From positions 1-4,704 of IMG/VR virus record IMGVR_UViG_3300014919_000025: a stretch of 4,704 bases of DNA. One strand, 5' to 3'. Each line of letters begins with the position of its first letter. The first letter of the stretch is position 1. The notes under the pieces are model-generated. The model made no database searches and was not told the DNA's origin. It saw nothing but the letters and a program-made list of their open reading frames with translations. Positions 1-4,704 of the stretch are shown in pieces. The translations under genes were made by a program, and so were the position numbers. The DNA comes from a virus (taxonomy: Duplodnaviria > Heunggongvirae > Uroviricota > Caudoviricetes).

Positions 1-24
1 AGAGTAATTCATCGGCACGTTAAA

Positions 25-657
25 TCATATCAGGCGTAATACCACAACCCTTAAGTTAGCGCTTATGGGGTTTACCCCCTCATTCAAACGGGCTTTCCAG
101 GCTTTGAAGGCTGCAGATTTTGAATTGCCACCAGCACGTTTTGGATAGGCCAGCCATGCCTGCTCAAACTCCGGAGAGTATTCCGGTCGGTTTGAACGAA
201 CTCGCACAGACTCATCAGCAGATGCACCAACAGCTATTGGTTCATTGACTGGTTCTTTGACTGGTTCAAAAGAGTGACTGGTTCTGGGTGAATCTCCTGC
301 ACTACCCCCTGGTGCAACTCCTGCACTACCTGGTGAATTTGCTGCACCAGATAGTGAATTATTTGCACTACCCCCTAGTGAATCTCCTGCACCATCAAGA
401 TGAAGGAGATAGATATTACTTGAGTTACCTTTTTCACCTTTCCGGGTGACTTTTTTTACCAGCCCGGACTCACAAAGGGCCGCAATATGATTCATCACAG
501 AACGTTTGCTAATCTCGCACTGGTCAGCAATATGCTGGTAGCTGGGCCAGCACTCACCCTGATCGCTGGCATTATCAGCCAGCTTAATCAGAACCAGTTT
601 TCGCAATGGATTTCCCACTCGAATTTTCATCGCTTTAACCATCAACTCCATACTCAT
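25..657 (-). CDS. Putative replication-initiation protein (210 aa): N-terminal winged-HTH domain, Gly/Ser/Ala/Pro-rich repetitive linker, short basic C-terminal region
   Basis: ORF-track ORF. The N-terminal region (LVLIKLADNASDQGECWPSYQHIADQCEISKRSVMNHIAALCESGLV) has the pattern of HTH domains found in phage/plasmid replication initiators. The ATG at 657 overlaps the stop of the upstream 74-aa ORF (ATGA at 654-657). It occupies the position of an O-like gene in a cro-cII-O type operon. The product call is inference; the coding call is better supported. Confidence 0.6.
   Translation of the reverse strand: MSMELMVKAMKIRVGNPLRKLVLIKLADNASDQGECWPSYQHIADQCEISKRSVMNHIAALCESGLVKKVTRKGEKGNSSNIYLLHLDGAGDSLGGSANNSLSGAANSPGSAGVAPGGSAGDSPRTSHSFEPVKEPVNEPIAVGASADESVRVRSNRPEYSPEFEQAWLAYPKRAGGNSKSAAFKAWKARLNEGVNPISANLRVVVLRLI
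240..392. repeat. Intragenic short direct repeats (iteron-like) in the linker of the replication gene
   Basis: TGACTGGTTC occurs three times (246-255, 258-267, 275-284). GTGAATCTCCTGCAC occurs twice exactly (288-302, 378-392), with degenerate copies near 332-348 and 352-368. CTGCACTACC(CCCT) occurs at 297-310, 321-330 and 364-376. These encode the low-complexity linker GAGDS / GSAGDSP / EPVKEPVNEP. Confidence 0.6.
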
Positions 658-878
658 GCAGCACCTCCGAGATGCTTCATGTTTTTTCCGGAGCGAAAGG
701 CTATAAGCGGCATACTGACGCGGTAATTACGGCCCAGCGGTTCACAAATCACCTTCTGACATTCACGGTCAACCAGGCTAACACGTAGAACATGCCCTGC
801 AGGCGTGGTGTACCACTGACCCGGACGAGGACAACGGAAAGTATGATTGGTAAACCGTTTGAAAATATTCCGGATCAT
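654..878 (-). CDS. Hypothetical small protein (74 aa), translationally coupled between Rha copy A and the replication gene
   Basis: ORF-track ORF. Its ATG (878-876) overlaps the Rha copy-A stop as ATGA (875-878), and its stop overlaps the next ATG as ATGA (654-657). An AGGGGG Shine-Dalgarno-like motif lies 5 nt upstream of the ATG. No recognisable domain. Confidence 0.4.
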   Translation of the reverse strand: MIRNIFKRFTNHTFRCPRPGQWYTTPAGHVLRVSLVDRECQKVICEPLGRNYRVSMPLIAFRSGKNMKHLGGAA

Positions 879-1756
879 TTACGCCCCCTTACCTCTGAAG
901 GGTTCAGCGACAAATTTATGAGACTGGCCAGTAGCGCCGCGTCGTTGATGCGGTCATACAGACTTACAGCCAGCGGGGATTCGGCTTTTGCCAACATGGG
1001 ATAAAGCTGCTGCAGCCAGACCTTGTGGATTACCGACAGGTGGGAGTAAAGCACGCTGGCGTTATCTGCGGCATCGCTCAGCGTGGATGGCTTTGAAAGC
1101 AGTTTTTCCATCTGGTTAAAGGCATTGATGTATGCCTCTTTGAACCGGGCAGCACGTTTACCCGTGAAACCCATAGCAAGAAACGCAAAACCGTCTCGTG
1201 TGATTTGATAGCAAAGGAGCTTGCGTGTACCACCGTTCGGTTGATTTACCGAAATCGATGTCTCCGCAAAATTGCGGGCACAAAACTCAGGGGAACAATC
1301 CAGAGTGCGGATCTTTTTCAGCACATCGTCGTGACGCTTGGAGAAGAAGTTGGCAACAGCCAAAGAAGTGGTAACGGCCTGGCCGTTGTCAATGGTGATT
1401 TCAGGTTGAGTGAGGGCTGGGATCGTAGCCATGATGGCAGCCTCCGTTGACAGTGAAAAACTTCCACCACCGGAAACGCCAATTTCACTGGTGGTGAACT
1501 GGACGGGGTTGGCGTAACCGGCGTCAACGGAGACCGGCGCACCTTTCGGTGCCCCCGCCCAGCCCACCATAATCTGGATGTGAGCAAATGCGGACGATAA
1601 AAAAGACGCTGGCGCGTCATACATCGCCGTTGACAATTTCAGGACGCCAATCCCGGCACCCGCTTTATAAGGTGCCTGAACAGTGTAACGTCCCGGAATT
1701 GCAGAATCAATATGCTGGTGGCGATTGGTAAACAGTTTGAAAATATTCCGGATCAT
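875..1756 (-). CDS. Rha-family phage regulatory protein, copy A. The full ORF is 293 aa; the Rha domain is the C-terminal 185 aa (875-1432) and has its own SD+ATG
   Basis: Rha hallmarks are present: FFSKRHDDVLKKIRTL and YQITRDGFAFLAMGFTGKRAARFKEAYINAFNQMEK. An internal start ATG at 1432-1430 is preceded by GGAGG (1441-1445 on plus) with an 8-nt spacer. The ORF is also open upstream to an ATG at 1756 that overlaps the copy-B stop (ATGA 1753-1756). Which start is used cannot be decided from sequence alone. Confidence 0.6.
   Translation of the reverse strand: MIRNIFKLFTNRHQHIDSAIPGRYTVQAPYKAGAGIGVLKLSTAMYDAPASFLSSAFAHIQIMVGWAGAPKGAPVSVDAGYANPVQFTTSEIGVSGGGSFSLSTEAAIMATIPALTQPEITIDNGQAVTTSLAVANFFSKRHDDVLKKIRTLDCSPEFCARNFAETSISVNQPNGGTRKLLCYQITRDGFAFLAMGFTGKRAARFKEAYINAFNQMEKLLSKPSTLSDAADNASVLYSHLSVIHKVWLQQLYPMLAKAESPLAVSLYDRINDAALLASLINLSLNPSEVRGRK
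1599..1618 (-). terminator. Terminator-like hairpin plus U-run inside the leader of Rha copy A (possible attenuator)
   Basis: On the minus strand, GACGC-gcca-GCGTC (plus 1605-1618) is followed directly by UUUUUU (plus 1604-1599). The stem is only 5 bp and the element lies within an open reading frame, so confidence is low. Confidence 0.3.
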
Positions 1757-2898
1757 TTACGCCCCCTTACCTCTGAAGGATTCAGCGACAAATTTATGAG
1801 GCAGGCCAGCGCCGAAGCATCATTAATATAGTCATACAAGCTAACAGCCAGCGGAGATTCGGCTTTTGCCAACATAGGATAAAGCTGCTGCAGCCAGACC
1901 TGATGAATTGATGAAATGTAGGAATAGAGAACGCTGGCGTTATGTGCAACGTCGCTCAGTACAGAGGGATTTGAAAGCTGTTTCTCCATCTGGTTAAAGG
2001 CATTGATGTATGCCTCTTTGAACCGGGCAGCACGTTTCCCCGTGAAGCCCATGGCAAGAAACGCAAAACCGTCGCGGGTGATTTGGTAACAAGGGAGTTT
2101 GCGGCCTGTGCAATCGGTGTAATCACTGGGCTGAAAATTCAGCTCAGTGAATTCAACAGAGCACTCAAGCGTCTGGATTTTTTGAATAACGTTTTTGTGC
2201 TGCTTGCAGAAATATTCGGCAACGGCCAAAGAAGAGGTAACAGCCTTCCCATGGATAACATCAATTTTAGGGTGAGTTTGGGTAGGGGTGGTTGCCATAG
2301 TGACATCCTCATGTGCGAATTTTGAAAACTCACCACATGGGACGCCAATCACAGAGGTGGTGAGACGTACAGGGTTGGCGTAACCGGTCGCACATGACCC
2401 CGGCGCATCTTTCGATGCCCCTGCACGCCCCACCATAATTTGGATGTGAGGAAACGTGCGCAAAAAAACCGCTGAAGCGCGGTTATGCGCATGTGCGAAT
2501 TTCAGGACGCCAATCCCGGCACCCGCTTTATAAGGTGCCTGAACAGTGTAACGTCCCGGAATTGCAGAATCAATATGCTGGTGGTCCTTCACACTCAACA
2601 AAATCACGCCTGAATTTCCACAAAGGACTAAAGCACTCATGCGGGTAGTCTTTGCGAAGATAGATAACGCGCTGTGTTTCTGGCTCCCAACGAATAACAT
2701 GGACATAAAGCCCTCTTCCGTCACGAAACCAGCGGTTAAGTTCCTGCACAACTCGCCCCCCACAGTCAGGTAAAGTTCTCTGTGGTTACTTACAGCCAGG
2801 TGATTTGGTAATCTGCATTCATGCCGTAACAACAGGTGTTCAGCGACGCTGACCACCAGCTGTTGCGACAAACGGTTATTTGCCGTTAAACTATTCAT
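1753..2898 (-). CDS. Rha-family phage regulatory protein, copy B, as a composite 381-aa ORF: a Cys/His-containing N-terminal region of about 105 aa, a leader of about 95 aa, and a Rha domain (1753-2298, 181 aa) with its own SD+ATG
   Basis: Rha motifs are present: YFCKQHKNVIQKIQTL and the identical core YQITRDGFAFLAMGFTGKRAARFKEAYINAFNQMEK. The internal ATG at 2298-2296 is preceded by GAGGA (2306-2310 on plus) with a 7-nt spacer. The ATG at 2898 overlaps the stop of the upstream 185-aa gene (ATGA 2895-2898). There is no in-frame stop between 2898 and the Rha domain. Confidence 0.55.
   Translation of the reverse strand: MNSLTANNRLSQQLVVSVAEHLLLRHECRLPNHLAVSNHRELYLTVGGELCRNLTAGFVTEEGFMSMLFVGSQKHSALSIFAKTTRMSALVLCGNSGVILLSVKDHQHIDSAIPGRYTVQAPYKAGAGIGVLKFAHAHNRASAVFLRTFPHIQIMVGRAGASKDAPGSCATGYANPVRLTTSVIGVPCGEFSKFAHEDVTMATTPTQTHPKIDVIHGKAVTSSLAVAEYFCKQHKNVIQKIQTLECSVEFTELNFQPSDYTDCTGRKLPCYQITRDGFAFLAMGFTGKRAARFKEAYINAFNQMEKQLSNPSVLSDVAHNASVLYSYISSIHQVWLQQLYPMLAKAESPLAVSLYDYINDASALACLINLSLNPSEVRGRK
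2462..2484 (-). terminator. Terminator-like hairpin plus U-run inside the leader of Rha copy B (possible attenuator)
   Basis: On the minus strand, AACCGC-gcuuca-GCGGUU (plus 2467-2484) sits next to a run of seven U (plus 2468-2462). It is at the position equivalent to the copy-A element but with a different stem sequence. Confidence 0.3.
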
Positions 2899-3452
2899 GC
2901 GTTAGTTTCTCCACAACCAGAAGCAATCGACGCCACGACGCCCGGAGCTGCACACTCGCGGGCGTTACTCTTTTCTGGAGCGCAGAAGATTTTGTAGACC
3001 AGTGCTGCATGCTCCTGGAGCTTCGAAATTGAAAGATACAGTTCGTCGTTAATTGCTGTCTTCTCATGCGGTTCCACTACACCGTCTTCGATTGCTGAAC
3101 GAATCTGTCTGGAATAACTGCCGATCTGTTCAATGACTTCCAGCAGGCGCTGGTTTATATCGGCGTTCTCTACTGCCTCAATTTCAGGAAGCGATACGAA
3201 CACCCCACCAGCAGACTGTGCGACAGCATCCGCAATGTAGTGAGTGCCAGCCGCACGCTGTAAAACCATTGCCCATCCCAGCGGGAAAATCTGATCGCCA
3301 TCTGCACGAAGGCGGTTGAATAATGCGTTCTCTGTTACATCCAGCCACTCAGCAGCTTCAGCGTAACCCCCCGGCAACGCCGCGATAGTTTTTCTGACAG
3401 CTTTCACGTACCACTCAGGCTGTTTTTCCACTTTCCAGTGATGATTACCCAC
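2895..3452 (-). CDS. Hypothetical regulatory protein at the cII position of the operon (185 aa), possibly CII/YdaT-like
   Basis: ORF-track ORF with a GTG start at 3452, preceded by AGGAGG (revcomp of 3460-3465) with a 7-nt spacer. The start overlaps the cro-like stop by 8 nt. The functional call rests on position only and is a weak inference. Confidence 0.55.
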   Translation of the reverse strand: MGNHHWKVEKQPEWYVKAVRKTIAALPGGYAEAAEWLDVTENALFNRLRADGDQIFPLGWAMVLQRAAGTHYIADAVAQSAGGVFVSLPEIEAVENADINQRLLEVIEQIGSYSRQIRSAIEDGVVEPHEKTAINDELYLSISKLQEHAALVYKIFCAPEKSNARECAAPGVVASIASGCGETNA

Positions 3453-3705
3453 GGCTTACCTCCTGTTCCTGTGGTTTAAACCCATTCTGGTTTTGGCTAG
3501 ATTGAAAACGTGCCGGATAAAGAATCTGCATTTCGCTGATTTCACCCTTAAAAAAATTGGCCAGACGTTCTGCAAGATCGATAGATGGAATTTGTTCCAG
3601 CCTTTCAATACGACTCAGCGTCGCTGGATTGACCTGAACGCCAGCAGCAACATGCTGCAAAGTAAATCCGTGCGCCTTACGCACACTCCGTAATGGTGAT
3701 TGCAT
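3445..3705 (-). CDS. Cro-like XRE-family HTH transcriptional regulator (86 aa)
   Basis: Small HTH protein (GFTLQHVAAGVQVNPATLSRIERLEQIPSIDLAERLANFF) transcribed divergently from the repressor gene. GGAGGT lies immediately upstream of the ATG (revcomp of 3709-3714). It is the first gene of the minus-strand operon. Confidence 0.7.
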   Translation of the reverse strand: MQSPLRSVRKAHGFTLQHVAAGVQVNPATLSRIERLEQIPSIDLAERLANFFKGEISEMQILYPARFQSSQNQNGFKPQEQEVSRG

Positions 3706-3802
3706 ATGACCTCCACATATTGCGTGATGAGCATATTATTTCACGCAAATATTTTGCGCAAGTTGATTTGCTTAACGCGCAATAAAGAAATGTAATAAAC
3801 GC
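3706..3802. promoter_or_regulatory. Divergent promoter/operator region between the cro-like and cI-like genes (OR-like)
   Basis: A 97-bp AT-rich intergenic region carries several related dyad half-sites. These are TTGCGTGA (3720-3727), CGCAA-N5-TTGCG (3744-3758), the palindrome TTGCGCAA (3754-3761) and TTGCT-N5-CGCAA (3768-3782). A candidate minus-strand promoter for cro has -35 TTGCGC (3756-3761) and -10 TAATAT (3733-3738) with a 17-bp spacer. A candidate plus-strand -10 TAATAA (3793-3798) sits just upstream of the repressor ATG. Confidence 0.55.
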
Positions 3803-4495
3803 ATGAACATAGGAAACCGAGTCAGACAACTTCGCCAGGCGAAGAACATGAAAATCGCCGATCTCGCTGAAGCAATAGGAGTGGATGCGGCGAATATCTC
3901 ACGCCTGGAAACAGGTAAGCAGAAACAATTCACTGAACAAGCCCTGAGTAATATTGCCAGGAGCTTAGGTGTTGATATCGCTGATCTCTTTACCTCAGAC
4001 GTCAAAAGTAATACTGTATGTAAAAACAGTATTGGTGAGGATGTTGCGCAGGTGAAGGATGTATTCCGTATTGAAATGCTGGATGTCAGTGCCAGTGCGG
4101 GAAATGGCCTTATCCAGGGCGGTGATGTCATTGATGTGATTCATGCCATTGAATACAGAACTGATAATGCTGTATCGATGTTTGGCGGACGGCCAGCCAA
4201 TCACATTAAAGTTATCAACGTTCGTGGGGACAGTATGTGTCCAACCATTGAGCCAGGAGATCTCATCTTCGTTGATATCAGTATCAATCAGTTTGATGGG
4301 GATGGTATATATGTATTTGGTTTTGATGATAAAATTTACGTCAAACGACTGCAAATGATACCTGATAAACTGCTGGTAATTTCTGATAATCAGATTTACC
4401 GCGAATGGGGAATTACCAGCGAAAACGAACATCGGTTTATGGTCTTTGGAAAGGTCTTAATCAGTCAGTCACAAACCCTTAAGCGACACAATTAA
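3803..4495 (+). CDS. cI-like prophage repressor (230 aa): N-terminal XRE-type HTH plus C-terminal LexA/S24-type autopeptidase domain
   Basis: The N-terminus NIGNRVRQLRQAKNMKIADLAEAIGVDAANISRLETGK is a canonical HTH. The C-terminal domain has the nucleophile in VRGDSM (Ser144) and the general base in YVKRL (Lys181), spaced 37 residues apart as in LexA. A candidate Ala-Gly cleavage site is SASA-GNG (Ala99-Gly100). Confidence 0.85.
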   Translation: MNIGNRVRQLRQAKNMKIADLAEAIGVDAANISRLETGKQKQFTEQALSNIARSLGVDIADLFTSDVKSNTVCKNSIGEDVAQVKDVFRIEMLDVSASAGNGLIQGGDVIDVIHAIEYRTDNAVSMFGGRPANHIKVINVRGDSMCPTIEPGDLIFVDISINQFDGDGIYVFGFDDKIYVKRLQMIPDKLLVISDNQIYREWGITSENEHRFMVFGKVLISQSQTLKRHN

Positions 4496-4515
4496 CCCCT
4501 ACCTCAACATCAATT

Positions 4516-4537
4516 AGCCACCAGAAGGTGGCTTTTC
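4516..4537 (+). terminator. Rho-independent terminator downstream of the repressor gene
   Basis: AGCCACC-agaa-GGTGGCT is a perfect 7-bp stem with a 4-nt loop, followed by TTTT, starting 21 nt after the repressor stop. Confidence 0.55.
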
Positions 4538-4550
4538 ATTACCCACCAAA

Positions 4551-4603
4551 TTGCATATCTCGCAATAAAAACACTTGCATAATGCGCAACTTCATTTTAT
4601 CTT
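4551..4603 (+). promoter_or_regulatory. Second operator-like cluster with a possible plus-strand promoter (OL/PL-like)
   Basis: Two 15-bp sites, TTGCATATCTCGCAA (4551-4565) and TTGCATAATGCGCAA (4575-4589), fit the TTGCG-N5-CGCAA dyad seen in the cI/cro intergenic region. A possible -35 TTGCAT (4575-4580) and -10 TATCTT (4598-4603) have a 17-bp spacer. Promoter direction and function are inferred. Confidence 0.35.
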
Positions 4604-4704
4604 TCTTTCCAGACATACAAACAAGGTACTAACAAAATTTGGTTGTAACACGGCGTATGGCACATGCGTCGTTAGCGGTCTGGTGACGTTAAAGGGGACA
4701 ATCC

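What the first reader, a model, noticed from the sequence alone, without database searches (positions are those of the whole stretch)
1722..1756. Duplication junction reuses the first 12 codons of the 74-aa gene as an in-frame start for the copy-A leader
The 74-aa ORF begins MIRNIFKRFTNH (start 878). The ORF downstream of Rha copy B begins MIRNIFKLFTNR (start 1756) and then continues in frame into the leader (HQHIDSAIPGRYTVQAPYKAGAGIGVLK) and Rha copy A. Both starts overlap the preceding Rha stop as ATGA and share the same AGGGGG ribosome-binding motif. The duplication therefore created a chimeric, translationally coupled start that could produce a 293-aa leader-Rha fusion.
Basis: seen in the sequence. 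Interest (0 to 1): 0.4.

Follow-up and report, generated by a model that had tools for sequence, protein, structure and literature searches.

The report
Duplication scar before an RNA-controlled Rha gene
The 35-base feature is the joint of a tandem duplication in an E. coli prophage; it leaves an orphan gene start in frame with a second Rha gene, but the "leader" it reads into is a promoter plus two regulatory RNAs, so this is largely an ordinary by-product.

Summary
Window 1756-1723 (- strand) copies the ribosome-binding site, the ATGA-coupled ATG and the first 11-12 codons of the 74-aa gene (878-845), matching at 33 of 34 bases. Base 1722 is the joint. From 1721 a second copy of an ~865-878-bp unit begins. 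A 293-codon ORF (1756-875) follows, and RefSeq annotates it as a protein.

The "leader" (1721-1433) is a P1-immI / P4 / Gifsy-1-isrK type RNA module:
- a promoter-like site;
- an isrK/a1b1 small RNA with its terminator (1675-1599);
- the C4 antisense RNA (1574-1487);
- the a2b2 target;
- a conserved GGAGG + ATG at 1432, the likely Rha start.

Read as codons, the leader shows no protein constraint. Substitutions are flat across codon positions, pN/pS is about 0.9, AlphaFold pLDDT is below 50, and there is strong base-pair covariation. Its Pfam "Ash" match traces to phage P4's old cI ORF137, which overlaps the P4 CI RNA.

The same joint occurs in 13 of 5,426 E. coli genomes and in 7 viral contigs, with at least five cassette allele pairs. 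It is therefore one old event.

One point is unexplained. In the closest cassette lineage the Rha frame carries no stop codons anywhere in the module, so ribosome read-through may matter.

The parts
1723..1767 (-). Orphan copy of the 74-aa gene's translation start: SD-like AGGGGG (1767-1762), ATG 1756-1754 overlapping the Rha-B stop TGA 1755-1753, and codons 1-11/12 (1756-1723).
   Evidence: 33/34 identical to 878-845. Identical 36-nt head in all 9 joint-bearing sequences.
1722..1722 (-). Joint base (G on the - strand) between the 3' end of repeat copy B and the 5' end of copy A. At most 1 nt of microhomology, so illegitimate recombination.
   Evidence: Comparison of the joint with the intact 74-aa gene and with the sequence upstream of the copy-B promoter.
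1676..1721 (-). Start of copy A: promoter-like TTGATT (1710-1705), 17 nt, TACACT (1687-1682), 6 nt, then +1 of isrK.
   Evidence: Read from the sequence. Position relative to Rfam isrK model position 1. 100% identical to copy B 2584-2539. Only 8/12 consensus matches, below the scan threshold. Function inferred from the Gifsy-1 PisrK arrangement.
1599..1675 (-). isrK-type sRNA of copy A: a1 hairpin, b1 loop GAUUGGCGU, intrinsic terminator (stem 1618-1605 plus T-run).
   Evidence: Rfam RF01394, 62.2 bits (GA 50), full length. Terminator scan. Covariation in the a1 hairpin.
1487..1574 (-). C4 antisense RNA of copy A. Its unpaired ACGCCAAC is complementary to UUGGCGU in b1 and b2. An AUG at 1570-1568 (AUUAUGGUGGG) lies in frame with the Rha ATG and corresponds to the first AUG of Gifsy-1 orf45.
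   Evidence: Rfam RF01695, 81.4 bits (GA 45), model 1-87. Compensatory changes in the closing stem and first hairpin. AUG present in 39/39 subfamily sequences.
1433..1486 (-). a2b2 target hairpin (b2 UUGGCGU 1482-1476, a2 GGUGGUG 1471-1465), spacer and SD GGAGG (1445-1441) of Rha copy A.
   Evidence: Conserved blocks and covarying hairpin in 27- and 62-sequence alignments. SD+ATG conserved 80-89 nt after the C4 anchor.
875..1432 (-). Rha-family gene, copy A (185 aa from ATG 1432). Its stop overlaps the ATG of the 74-aa gene.
   Evidence: Pfam PF09669 4e-27 and TIGR02681 6e-24, with the domain starting about 8 aa after M109. Coding signature omega 0.23. Folded from residue ~120.
1753..2584 (-). 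Copy B of the cassette: promoter-like site (2573-2568 / 2550-2545), isrK 2538-2462, C4 2440-2353, Rha-B CDS 2298-1753.
   Evidence: Rfam 62.3 and 75.1 bits. Pfam PF09669 3e-32. Alignment of the two copies.
654..878 (-). Intact 74-aa gene, the source of the duplicated head. It is ATGA-coupled to Rha-A upstream and to the replication gene downstream.
   Evidence: the ORF listing. Annotated as a hypothetical protein in all relatives. No Pfam or NCBIfam hit.
2570..2749 (-). DUF4222 gene upstream of copy B. Its TGA lies inside the -35 hexamer and marks the left end of the repeat unit. It overlaps the N-terminal part of the annotated 381-aa ORF in a different frame.
   Evidence: Pfam PF13973 9e-14. 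Annotated separately in S88 and AR_0013.

Best explanation
The feature is the novel joint of a head-to-tail duplication of a complete RNA-controlled regulatory cassette in a lambdoid E. coli prophage.

**The cassette.** One unit holds, in order: a promoter-like site; an isrK/a1b1 small RNA with its terminator; the C4 antisense RNA; the a2b2 target; an SD+ATG; and a Rha-family gene. It sits between DUF4222 and the 74-aa and replication genes.

**The joint.** The duplicated unit began 11 nt upstream of the -35 hexamer and ended 34 nt into the 74-aa gene. A dead copy of that gene's SD, ATGA-coupled ATG and first 11-12 codons therefore now lies just before the second cassette's promoter. In this cassette lineage the frame of the Rha ATG has no stop codons through the whole RNA module. 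The orphan ATG happens to be in that frame (a 1-in-3 outcome), which opens a 293-codon ORF.

**The leader.** It works as DNA and RNA, not as a peptide. By analogy with P1 immI, P4 immunity and Gifsy-1 isrK-orf45-anrP, C4 and isrK pair through ACGCCAA/UUGGCGU to control translation or read-through into Rha. This mechanism is inferred, not shown here.

**Rha-A.** It is most likely made from ATG 1432. Some may also start at the in-frame AUG at 1570, the counterpart of the orf45 start.

**Ribosomes at 1756.** Ribosomes ending Rha-B on read-through mRNA may re-initiate at 1756. That would yield at most a minor Rha with an unstructured 108-aa extension.

**History.** The joint arose once. Cassette centres were later exchanged by homologous recombination. 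Recombination between the two copies gives single-copy B/A hybrids.
For: - **RNA module.** Rfam C4 scores 81.4 and 75.1 bits; isrK scores 62.2 and 62.3 bits. All are full length and above the gathering thresholds, in both copies. 19 of 44 consensus pairs show compensatory changes across 27 cassettes, including P4. The module folds with z = -4.5 against shuffles. Terminator hairpins with T-runs lie at 1618-1605 and 2484-2467.
- **Real start at 1432.** An SD+ATG sits 80-89 nt after the C4 anchor in 61 of 62 unique cassettes, whatever the downstream gene. The TIGR02681 and Pfam Rha domains begin just after M109.
- **No peptide constraint in the leader.** Copy A against copy B gives codon-position substitutions of 23/20/26 and omega 0.73, against 35/26/72 and 0.23 in Rha. 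Over 45 allele pairs, pN/pS is 0.96 (isrK part) and 0.83 (orf45-like part), against 0.44 in the coding sequence. Indels of 1, 2, 4 and 5 nt occur across the wider family. 27 of 62 cassettes have a stop 9-84 nt upstream of the ATG. AlphaFold gives pLDDT 22-32 and no secondary structure for residues 11-118, with a folded Rha domain.
- **Pfam Ash is a translated RNA gene.** PF10554 matches P4's old 'cI ORF137' at residues 22-85, on top of the Rfam C4 hit at 8507-8420. The P4 derepression protein epsilon belongs to a different family, PF25738. The Gifsy-1 paper describes P4 CI RNA as processed from an untranslated transcript.
- **Duplication and history.** The repeat geometry is. The joint is identical in 13 of 5,426 genomes and in 7 viral contigs. 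It occurs with allele pairs B-A, C-B, C-A and two others. About 555 genomes carry the single-copy form, 878 bp shorter. The single copy examined (L002) is 100% copy B up to the shared CAGGTCTGGCTGCAGCAGC stretch and 100% copy A after it.
Against: - In the 39 closest cassettes the Rha frame has no stop in any of three segments: -138..0, -244..-138 and -288..-244. Most alleles carry stops in the other two frames.
- Among 17 cluster representatives less than 85% alike, stop counts per frame are 24, 24 and 5.
- Several alleles have an SD+ATG at about -297, in frame.
- The whole early operon is a chain of ATGA-coupled ORFs only if the long ORFs are counted.
- All joint-bearing variants keep the ORF open, at 293, 288 or 290 aa.

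These points fit selection for ribosome passage through the module, which would give the orphan start a role. No expression data were available. The promoter is only 8/12 to consensus and was not called by the scan.
Confidence: 0.75

Rival explanations
1. **Translation through the module is functional, and the in-frame joint was selected.** On read-through transcripts from PR or from copy B, ribosomes must travel from an upstream coupled start across the promoter region, the isrK terminator and C4. This would suppress the terminator or Rho polarity so that Rha, the 74-aa gene and the replication genes are expressed. The peptide sequence itself would be irrelevant. Only a joint that kept the orphan ATG in this frame would then survive.
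For: - The closest lineage has zero stops in the Rha frame across the whole module, against stops in most alleles in the other frames.
- Stop counts are 5 against 24 and 24 among diverged representatives.
- pN/pS near 1 with an open frame is the pattern expected when passage matters and sequence does not.
- Gifsy-1 orf45 sets a precedent: translation of the C4-overlapping ORF is required for anrP translation, while its amino-acid sequence varies.
- The ORFs form a chain of ATGA couplings.
- The joint ORF is open with five different downstream alleles.
Against: - Many of the stops in the other frames sit at conserved positions, so the events are not independent.
- 5 of 17 diverged cassette types do carry stops in that frame, and 27 of 62 have one just upstream of the ATG.
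- In P4 the frame is closed between the isrK-like seqA and CI.
- The 381-aa ORF overlaps a real DUF4222 gene in another frame.
- In relatives the ORF starts at many different positions, from -297 to -2271, and protein lengths range from 267 to 499 aa.
- There is only one joint event, so the in-frame outcome has p = 1/3.
Confidence: 0.17
2. **The two cassettes were never a duplication.** One illegitimate recombination event joined two different phages that carried diverged alleles, A and B.
For: Copies A and B are only 72-87% identical in their centres. Both the A-type and B-type centres occur in single-copy prophages: the full A cassette in AR_0013 and the B centre in the B/A hybrid of FDAARGOS_144.
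Against: - The first 88 nt of copy A are identical to copy B, carrying the TGCAATTCC promoter variant. The A-type single copy in AR_0013 has TGCCATTCC instead.
- The same joint is flanked by at least five allele pairs.
- This is simpler to explain as one duplication followed by exchange of cassette centres through the conserved flanks.
Confidence: 0.1
3. **Assembly or annotation artefact.** The repeat, or the ORF, does not exist in the real genome.
For: None beyond the general risk that repeats pose for assembly.
Against: The 2.4-kb region is 100% identical in 5 complete genomes and more than 99.8% in 2 more. The joint occurs in 13 complete genomes and 7 independent viral contigs.
Confidence: 0.01

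Closest known systems
Gifsy-1 isrK-orf45-anrP locus of Salmonella (Hershko-Shalev et al. 2016, PMC4825925)
   Same: Same order of parts: own promoter, about 77-nt isrK sRNA with a leaky terminator, a C4-like processed RNA (STnc1160) overlapped by a short ORF that starts at AUUAUGG, then an SD+ATG of a phage regulator. Rfam isrK matches both window copies above threshold.
   Different: - In the window the orf45-equivalent AUG (1570) runs in frame into Rha with no stop. In Gifsy-1 the orf45 stop overlaps the anrP AUG as AUGA.
- The window cassette lies inside the PR-side early operon, between cII/DUF4222 and the replication genes.
- It is tandemly duplicated.
Phage P1/P7 immI operon (c4 antisense RNA - icd - ant; Citron & Schuster 1990, cited in PMC2864571; operon details from my own knowledge)
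   Same: A C4 RNA flanked by an upstream (a1b1) and a downstream (a2b2) complementary target, placed ahead of a regulator gene. C4 scores 81 and 75 bits. UUGGCGU occurs twice, opposite ACGCCAA in C4.
   Different: - The downstream gene is Rha-family, not P1 Ant.
- There is no separate icd ORF.
- The Rfam a1b1 model scores only 21.6 bits here (GA 46.7).
Phage P4 immunity region (PLE - seqA - CI RNA - seqC - kil/eta)
   Same: P4 gives the same pair of Rfam hits: isrK at 8692-8615 and C4 at 8507-8420. It also has a long ORF ('cI ORF137') through the RNA that Pfam calls Ash.
   Different: P4 is a satellite phage. There the module controls its replication operon by transcription termination. Its frame is closed between seqA and CI.
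Pfam PF10554 Phage_ASH / 'Rha/Ash domain proteins' of Stx Eru phages (PMC8951638)
   Same: ORF293 and ORF381 match PF10554 at 74.8 and 54.7 bits over exactly the leader. More than 6,400 predicted proteins share the Ash+Rha architecture.
   Different: The evidence here indicates that Ash is the conceptual translation of the isrK/C4 RNA module, not a protein domain.

Membership tests
Rfam RF01695 C4 antisense RNA | Covariance-model score at or above the gathering threshold (45 bits) over the full model | tested here: met
   81.4 bits (1574-1487) and 75.1 bits (2440-2353), model positions 1-87 of 87. Compensatory pairs in the closing stem and first hairpin.
Rfam RF01394 isrK Hfq-binding RNA | Score at or above the gathering threshold (50 bits), including the 3' terminator | tested here: met
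   62.2 bits (1675-1599) and 62.3 bits (2538-2462), model positions 1-77 of 77. Terminator hairpins with T-runs. Hfq binding was not tested.
Rfam RF03163 c4-a1b1 | Score at or above the gathering threshold (46.7 bits) | tested here: not met
   21.6 bits for both copies. The same stretch is covered by the isrK model. P4 scores 44.1 bits.
P1 immI-type antisense control | Two target sites, upstream and downstream of C4, complementary to an unpaired C4 segment | tested here: met
   UUGGCGU sits in the b1 loop (isrK) and the b2 loop (1482-1476), opposite ACGCCAA in C4. GGUGGUG (1471-1465) lies opposite CACCACC. All are invariant or covarying in 27 cassettes.
P1 immI-type / Gifsy-1 isrK locus | A separate short ORF (icd / orf45) whose stop overlaps the start of the regulator gene | tested here: not met
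   The AUG at 1570 is conserved (39/39), but the frame runs into Rha with no stop. AUGA-type cassettes do exist in other subfamilies.
P1 immI-type / Gifsy-1 isrK locus | The downstream protein acts as an antirepressor | not testable with these tools
   Only family membership is shown (Rha, PF09669 / TIGR02681).
Gifsy-1 isrK locus | Own promoter directly upstream of isrK +1 | tested here: inconclusive
   TTGATT-17-TACACT-6-G(+1) is conserved between copies and alleles. It has 8/12 consensus matches and was not called by the scan.
Pfam PF09669 / TIGR02681 Rha family | Domain score above the curated cut-off | tested here: met
   PF09669: 94.9 and 111.3 bits (cut-off 29.9). TIGR02681: 84.2 and 114.3 bits (cut-off 45.95).
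Pfam PF10554 Phage_ASH (as a protein domain) | The sequence evolves and folds as a protein | tested here: not met
   The HMM score passes (74.8 and 54.7 bits). Against that: flat codon-position substitutions and pN/pS 0.83-0.96; pLDDT below 50; and the P4 member overlaps the CI RNA.
Tandem duplication by illegitimate recombination | Head-to-tail repeat with a single novel joint lacking extended homology; single-copy relatives with both parental junctions | tested here: met
   Repeat units 845-1721 and 1723-2584. Joint with at most 1 nt of microhomology. Single-copy loci L002-L004 show the parental DUF4222/promoter and Rha/74-aa junctions.

The most novel reading that the evidence does not exclude
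In this lambdoid lineage the frame continuous with Rha may be kept free of stop codons across the promoter, the isrK terminator and C4. Ribosomes coupled from the upstream gene could then translate straight through the RNA module on read-through transcripts. That passage would switch off the terminator and the C4/isrK structures in cis and link early-operon translation to Rha and replication-gene expression. Under this reading the orphan ATG at 1756 is what preserves the ribosome relay across the duplication. The thousands of annotated 'Ash' domains would then be relay ORFs whose sequence does not matter.
Probability: 0.15. Interest if true: 0.55.

Novelty: new member of a known kind. Interest (0 to 1): 0.3.

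Why it matters
- **Annotation.** The 293-aa and 381-aa "Rha family" proteins, and the "Ash" domain found in more than 6,400 predicted proteins and discussed as a domain of unknown function in Stx phages, are most likely conceptual translations of a promoter and two regulatory RNAs. The real Rha protein is about 185 aa.
- **Biology.** These E. coli prophages, including one in the ExPEC strain S88, carry two diverged Rha regulators. Each sits behind its own copy of the same C4/isrK switch, so both should respond to the same RNAs.
- **If the open frame is selected.** The locus would be a compact example of translation overriding an sRNA/terminator module. It would be testable with one stop-codon mutant.

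Tried and rejected
- **Genome-contig scan** with CCGGTTNNGCCAACCC.
- **Promoter scan**. It called no sigma-70 site in 600-3000. The promoter is therefore inferred from position and homology only.
- **NCBIfam**. It has no Ash model hit for the leader. The weak pantothenate-kinase line (E = 0.009, 15 bits against a cut-off of 487) was dismissed as noise.
- **mir-875 Rfam line** (22 bits, GA 84). Dismissed as noise.
- **Alternative-frame ORFs as orf45 equivalents.** The 100-aa (1620-1318) and 47-aa (2492-2349) ORFs have no family hits and are not conserved between the copies.
- **Literature.** A DOI look-up for the P4 kil/eta paper failed.
- **Assembly artefact.** Considered and rejected.
- **P4 epsilon = Ash,** as one paper states. 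Rejected, because epsilon belongs to PF25738 and PF10554 matches ORF137.
Full report
**1. The observation**

The window is the immunity and early region of a lambdoid E. coli prophage.
- On the + strand lies a cI-like S24 repressor (3803-4495).
- On the - strand lie a cro-like HTH gene (3705-3445), a CII/CP76-family gene (ymfL, 3452-2895), a 381-codon ORF (2898-1753), a 293-codon ORF (1756-875), a 74-codon ORF (878-654) and an HTH_36/DnaD-like replication gene (657-25).

The repeat finder shows a head-to-tail repeat, copy A = 845-1721 and copy B = 1723-2584. Its segments are 75-87% identical. A base-by-base alignment shows three things.
- The 34 nt at 1756-1723 repeat the start of the 74-aa gene (878-845) with one change (CGG->CTG).
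- Both ATGs overlap a Rha stop as ATGA and follow AGGGGG.
- The frame from ATG 1756 is open to the stop of Rha copy A.

RefSeq annotates exactly this ORF as a 293-aa "Rha family phage regulatory protein" (WP_001571188.1).

**2. What the "leader" is**

Rfam finds, in each copy and on the - strand, a full-length isrK sRNA (1675-1599 and 2538-2462; 62 bits, threshold 50). It also finds a full-length C4 antisense RNA (1574-1487 and 2440-2353; 81 and 75 bits, threshold 45). The weak c4-a1b1 hit lies inside isrK.

Directly upstream of isrK +1 is TTGATT-17-TACACT (1710-1705 / 1687-1682). It has only 8/12 consensus matches and was not called by the promoter scan. Its role as a promoter is inferred from the Gifsy-1 PisrK arrangement. 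The isrK terminators were found by the terminator scan.

I pulled 120 viral-contig loci with a C4 anchor pattern and aligned 62 unique cassettes. The conserved features are all RNA-like:
- a covarying a1 hairpin;
- an invariant GGGAUUGGCGUCC;
- a covarying terminator with a U-run;
- the C4 fold;
- a second GAUUGGCGU hairpin followed by GGUGGUG (a2b2);
- an SD+ATG 80-89 nt after the anchor in 61 of 62 cassettes, whatever the downstream gene is.

RNAalifold on 27 cassettes, including phage P4, gives 44 pairs, of which 19 have compensatory double changes. The copy-A module folds at -110 kcal/mol, z = -4.5. The unpaired ACGCCAA of C4 is complementary to the UUGGCGU loops on both sides. This is the P1 immI logic.

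**3. Is the leader also a protein?**

Pfam PF10554 (Phage_ASH) matches the leader in both ORFs. In phage P4, however, PF10554 matches the historical "cI ORF137" exactly where Rfam places the C4-family CI RNA. The P4 helper-derepression protein epsilon belongs to a different family. The Gifsy-1 paper describes CI RNA as processed from an untranslated transcript.

- **Copy A against copy B.** The leader has substitutions of 23/20/26 by codon position and omega 0.73. Rha has 35/26/72 and omega 0.23.
- **Pooled over 45 pairs of ten diverged alleles.** pN/pS is 0.96 for the isrK part, 0.83 for the orf45-like part and 0.44 for the downstream coding sequence.
- **Across the wider family.** Indels of 1, 2, 4 and 5 nt occur. 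27 of 62 cassettes have a stop 9-84 nt before the ATG.
- **Structure prediction.** AlphaFold2 with a 26-sequence alignment gives pLDDT 22-32 and no secondary structure for residues 11-118. The Rha domain from about residue 120 is folded.
- **Domain boundaries.** The Rha models (PF09669, TIGR02681) start a few residues after M109, which is ATG 1432.

The leader is therefore not a conserved or folded polypeptide, and ATG 1432 with its GGAGG is the ancestral start. The N-terminal 105 codons of the 381-aa ORF also overlap a real DUF4222 gene (2749-2570) in another frame. That gene's TGA lies inside the -35 hexamer.

**4. History of the joint**

- About 555 of 5,426 complete E. coli genomes carry a single-copy version 878 bp shorter. 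Seven carry the window's double copy at 99.8-100% identity.
- The joint itself (1660-1830) is 100% identical in 13 genomes, including S88. Its 20-mer occurs in 7 IMG/VR contigs.
- The 36-nt head is identical in all nine sequences examined, yet the flanking cassettes differ: B-A (the window), C-B (S88), C-A and two further pairs. The ORF from the orphan ATG is open in every case, at 293, 288 or 290 aa.
- The first 88 nt of copy A are identical to copy B. They differ from the A-type single copy of strain AR_0013.
- The single copy examined in FDAARGOS_144 is 100% copy B up to a shared 26-nt stretch and 100% copy A after it. O104:H4 encodes the identical 381-aa protein. This is the product expected from homologous recombination between the two tandem copies.
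- The intact 74-aa gene reads ...AAACGGTTTACCAATCATAC in every relative examined. The joint reads ...AAACTGTTTACCAATCG|CCACCAGC. There is therefore at most 1 nt of microhomology.

The simplest account is one illegitimate duplication, followed by exchange of cassette centres through the conserved flanks and by occasional collapse to a single copy.

PGAP is inconsistent on the downstream copy. In S88 it is called a pseudogene "missing N-terminus".

**5. How it most likely works**

*Shown here:*
- the parts of the module and their order;
- the conservation and covariation of the RNA elements;
- the conserved SD+ATG.

*Inferred from P1, P4 and Gifsy-1 (and general knowledge of P1 immI):*
- Each cassette is transcribed from its own promoter.
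- Most transcripts end at the isrK terminator.
- Read-through RNA carries C4 and the Rha message.
- C4/isrK pairing with the UUGGCGU sites sets whether Rha is translated.

Both copies share identical recognition sequences, so they should cross-regulate.

The AUG at 1570 is the counterpart of the Gifsy-1 orf45 start and is conserved in 39 of 39 sequences. Here it is in frame with Rha rather than ending at an AUGA. A +46-aa Rha isoform is therefore possible.

ATG 1756 can be used only on transcripts coming from copy B or from PR. No terminator-like site precedes it, and it keeps the SD and ATGA coupling of a real gene. Some re-initiation is therefore plausible. Its product would be Rha with an unstructured 108-aa extension.

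**6. What remains unexplained**

- In the 39 cassettes closest to the window, the Rha frame has no stop codon in the orf45-like part, the isrK part or the promoter part. Most alleles have stops in both other frames.
- Among 17 representatives less than 85% alike, stop counts are 24, 24 and 5.
- Some alleles carry an in-frame SD+ATG at about -297.

Many of the stops in the other frames sit at conserved positions, so the test is not clean. The protein-database view is also biased towards open frames.

Even so, an open frame with pN/pS near 1 is what one would expect if ribosome passage, not the peptide, were selected. That passage could override the isrK terminator or prevent polarity on the downstream replication genes. 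I rate this at about 15-17%.

**7. Comparison, novelty and verdict**

The cassette belongs to the known C4/isrK class (P1 immI, P4 immunity, Gifsy-1 isrK). It differs in three ways:
- it has an in-frame orf45 equivalent;
- its downstream gene is Rha-family;
- in this rare form it is tandemly duplicated with diverged Rha paralogues.

The joint ORF is best seen as a scar of the duplication that annotation pipelines read as a protein. Interest is low to moderate. The practical value lies in correcting the "Ash/Rha" annotations, which the literature treats as a protein domain of unknown function, and in offering a simple test of the relay idea.

Noticed in passing
window 2570-2898 (- strand): The annotated 381-aa 'Rha family' ORF starts at an ATG overlapping the ymfL stop. 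Its first ~105 codons overlap a DUF4222 gene (2749-2570, Pfam 9e-14) in another frame. The DUF4222 TGA sits inside the -35 hexamer of the copy-B promoter-like site. PGAP annotates either the long ORF or DUF4222 plus a shorter ORF, depending on the genome.
   Followed up: partly
L002 (FDAARGOS_144) 1700-3000; L003 (O104:H4) encodes the same 381-aa protein: The single-copy cassette of FDAARGOS_144, 878 bp shorter than the window's tandem like the ~555 single-copy genomes, is an exact B-head/A-tail hybrid of the window's two copies. The crossover lies in the shared CAGGTCTGGCTGCAGCAGCTTTATCC stretch. It looks like a collapse product of the tandem. O104:H4 carries the identical protein (WP_001087340.1).
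   Followed up: yes
L128 (phage P4) 8168-8584 and 8420-8507: Pfam PF10554 'Ash' matches P4's old 'cI gene product ORF137' exactly over the Rfam C4 (CI RNA) hit. P4 epsilon belongs to PF25738. One paper equates Ash with epsilon (PMC8628076). Another treats Rha/Ash as protein domains in Stx 'Eru' phages (PMC8951638).
   Followed up: yes
proteins P0014 (496 aa, 279 contigs), P0057 (401 aa), P0001 (478 aa): These are single predicted ORFs that span two isrK/C4 cassettes with joints different from the one in the window. The first Rha is truncated after NQMEK or after 21 aa, and the second leader is read partly in another frame. Tandem cassettes seem to have arisen more than once.
   Followed up: no
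L036 9148-11607 (- strand); also L092 and L007: A stop-free frame of 819 codons runs through repetitive, non-protein-like sequence upstream of a P4-like cassette that precedes an Icd-like gene. The motif ETTKPGSALTLTGLLT occurs twice. In L007 the frame is partly antisense to annotated genes. Unexplained.
   Followed up: no
window 288-392: Three overlapping copies of a 39-nt direct repeat (GTGAATCTCCTGCACTACCCCCTGGTG...) lie inside the replication-protein gene. This resembles iterons of an origin embedded in a lambda O-like gene.
   Followed up: no
window 3768-3786 and 4551-4569: Two TTGC-N-GCAATAAA repeats (84% alike) flank the cI-like repressor gene. They are candidate operator sites on either side of the repressor.
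   Followed up: no
L006 1292-1837, L007 1332-1520: The same RNA module (84-92% identical) precedes other genes in the same prophage slot: a 77-aa ORF annotated as part of an 'ash family protein', and an Icd-like cell-division inhibitor. The module behaves as a portable unit.
   Followed up: partly
window 1-66: The first ~66 bases of the window did not align with the E. coli S88 locus, whereas the rest (67-4704) is collinear with it. PGAP's replication gene in the double-copy genome SCU-172 is longer (819 nt) than the 633-nt ORF that ends at window 25.
   Followed up: no
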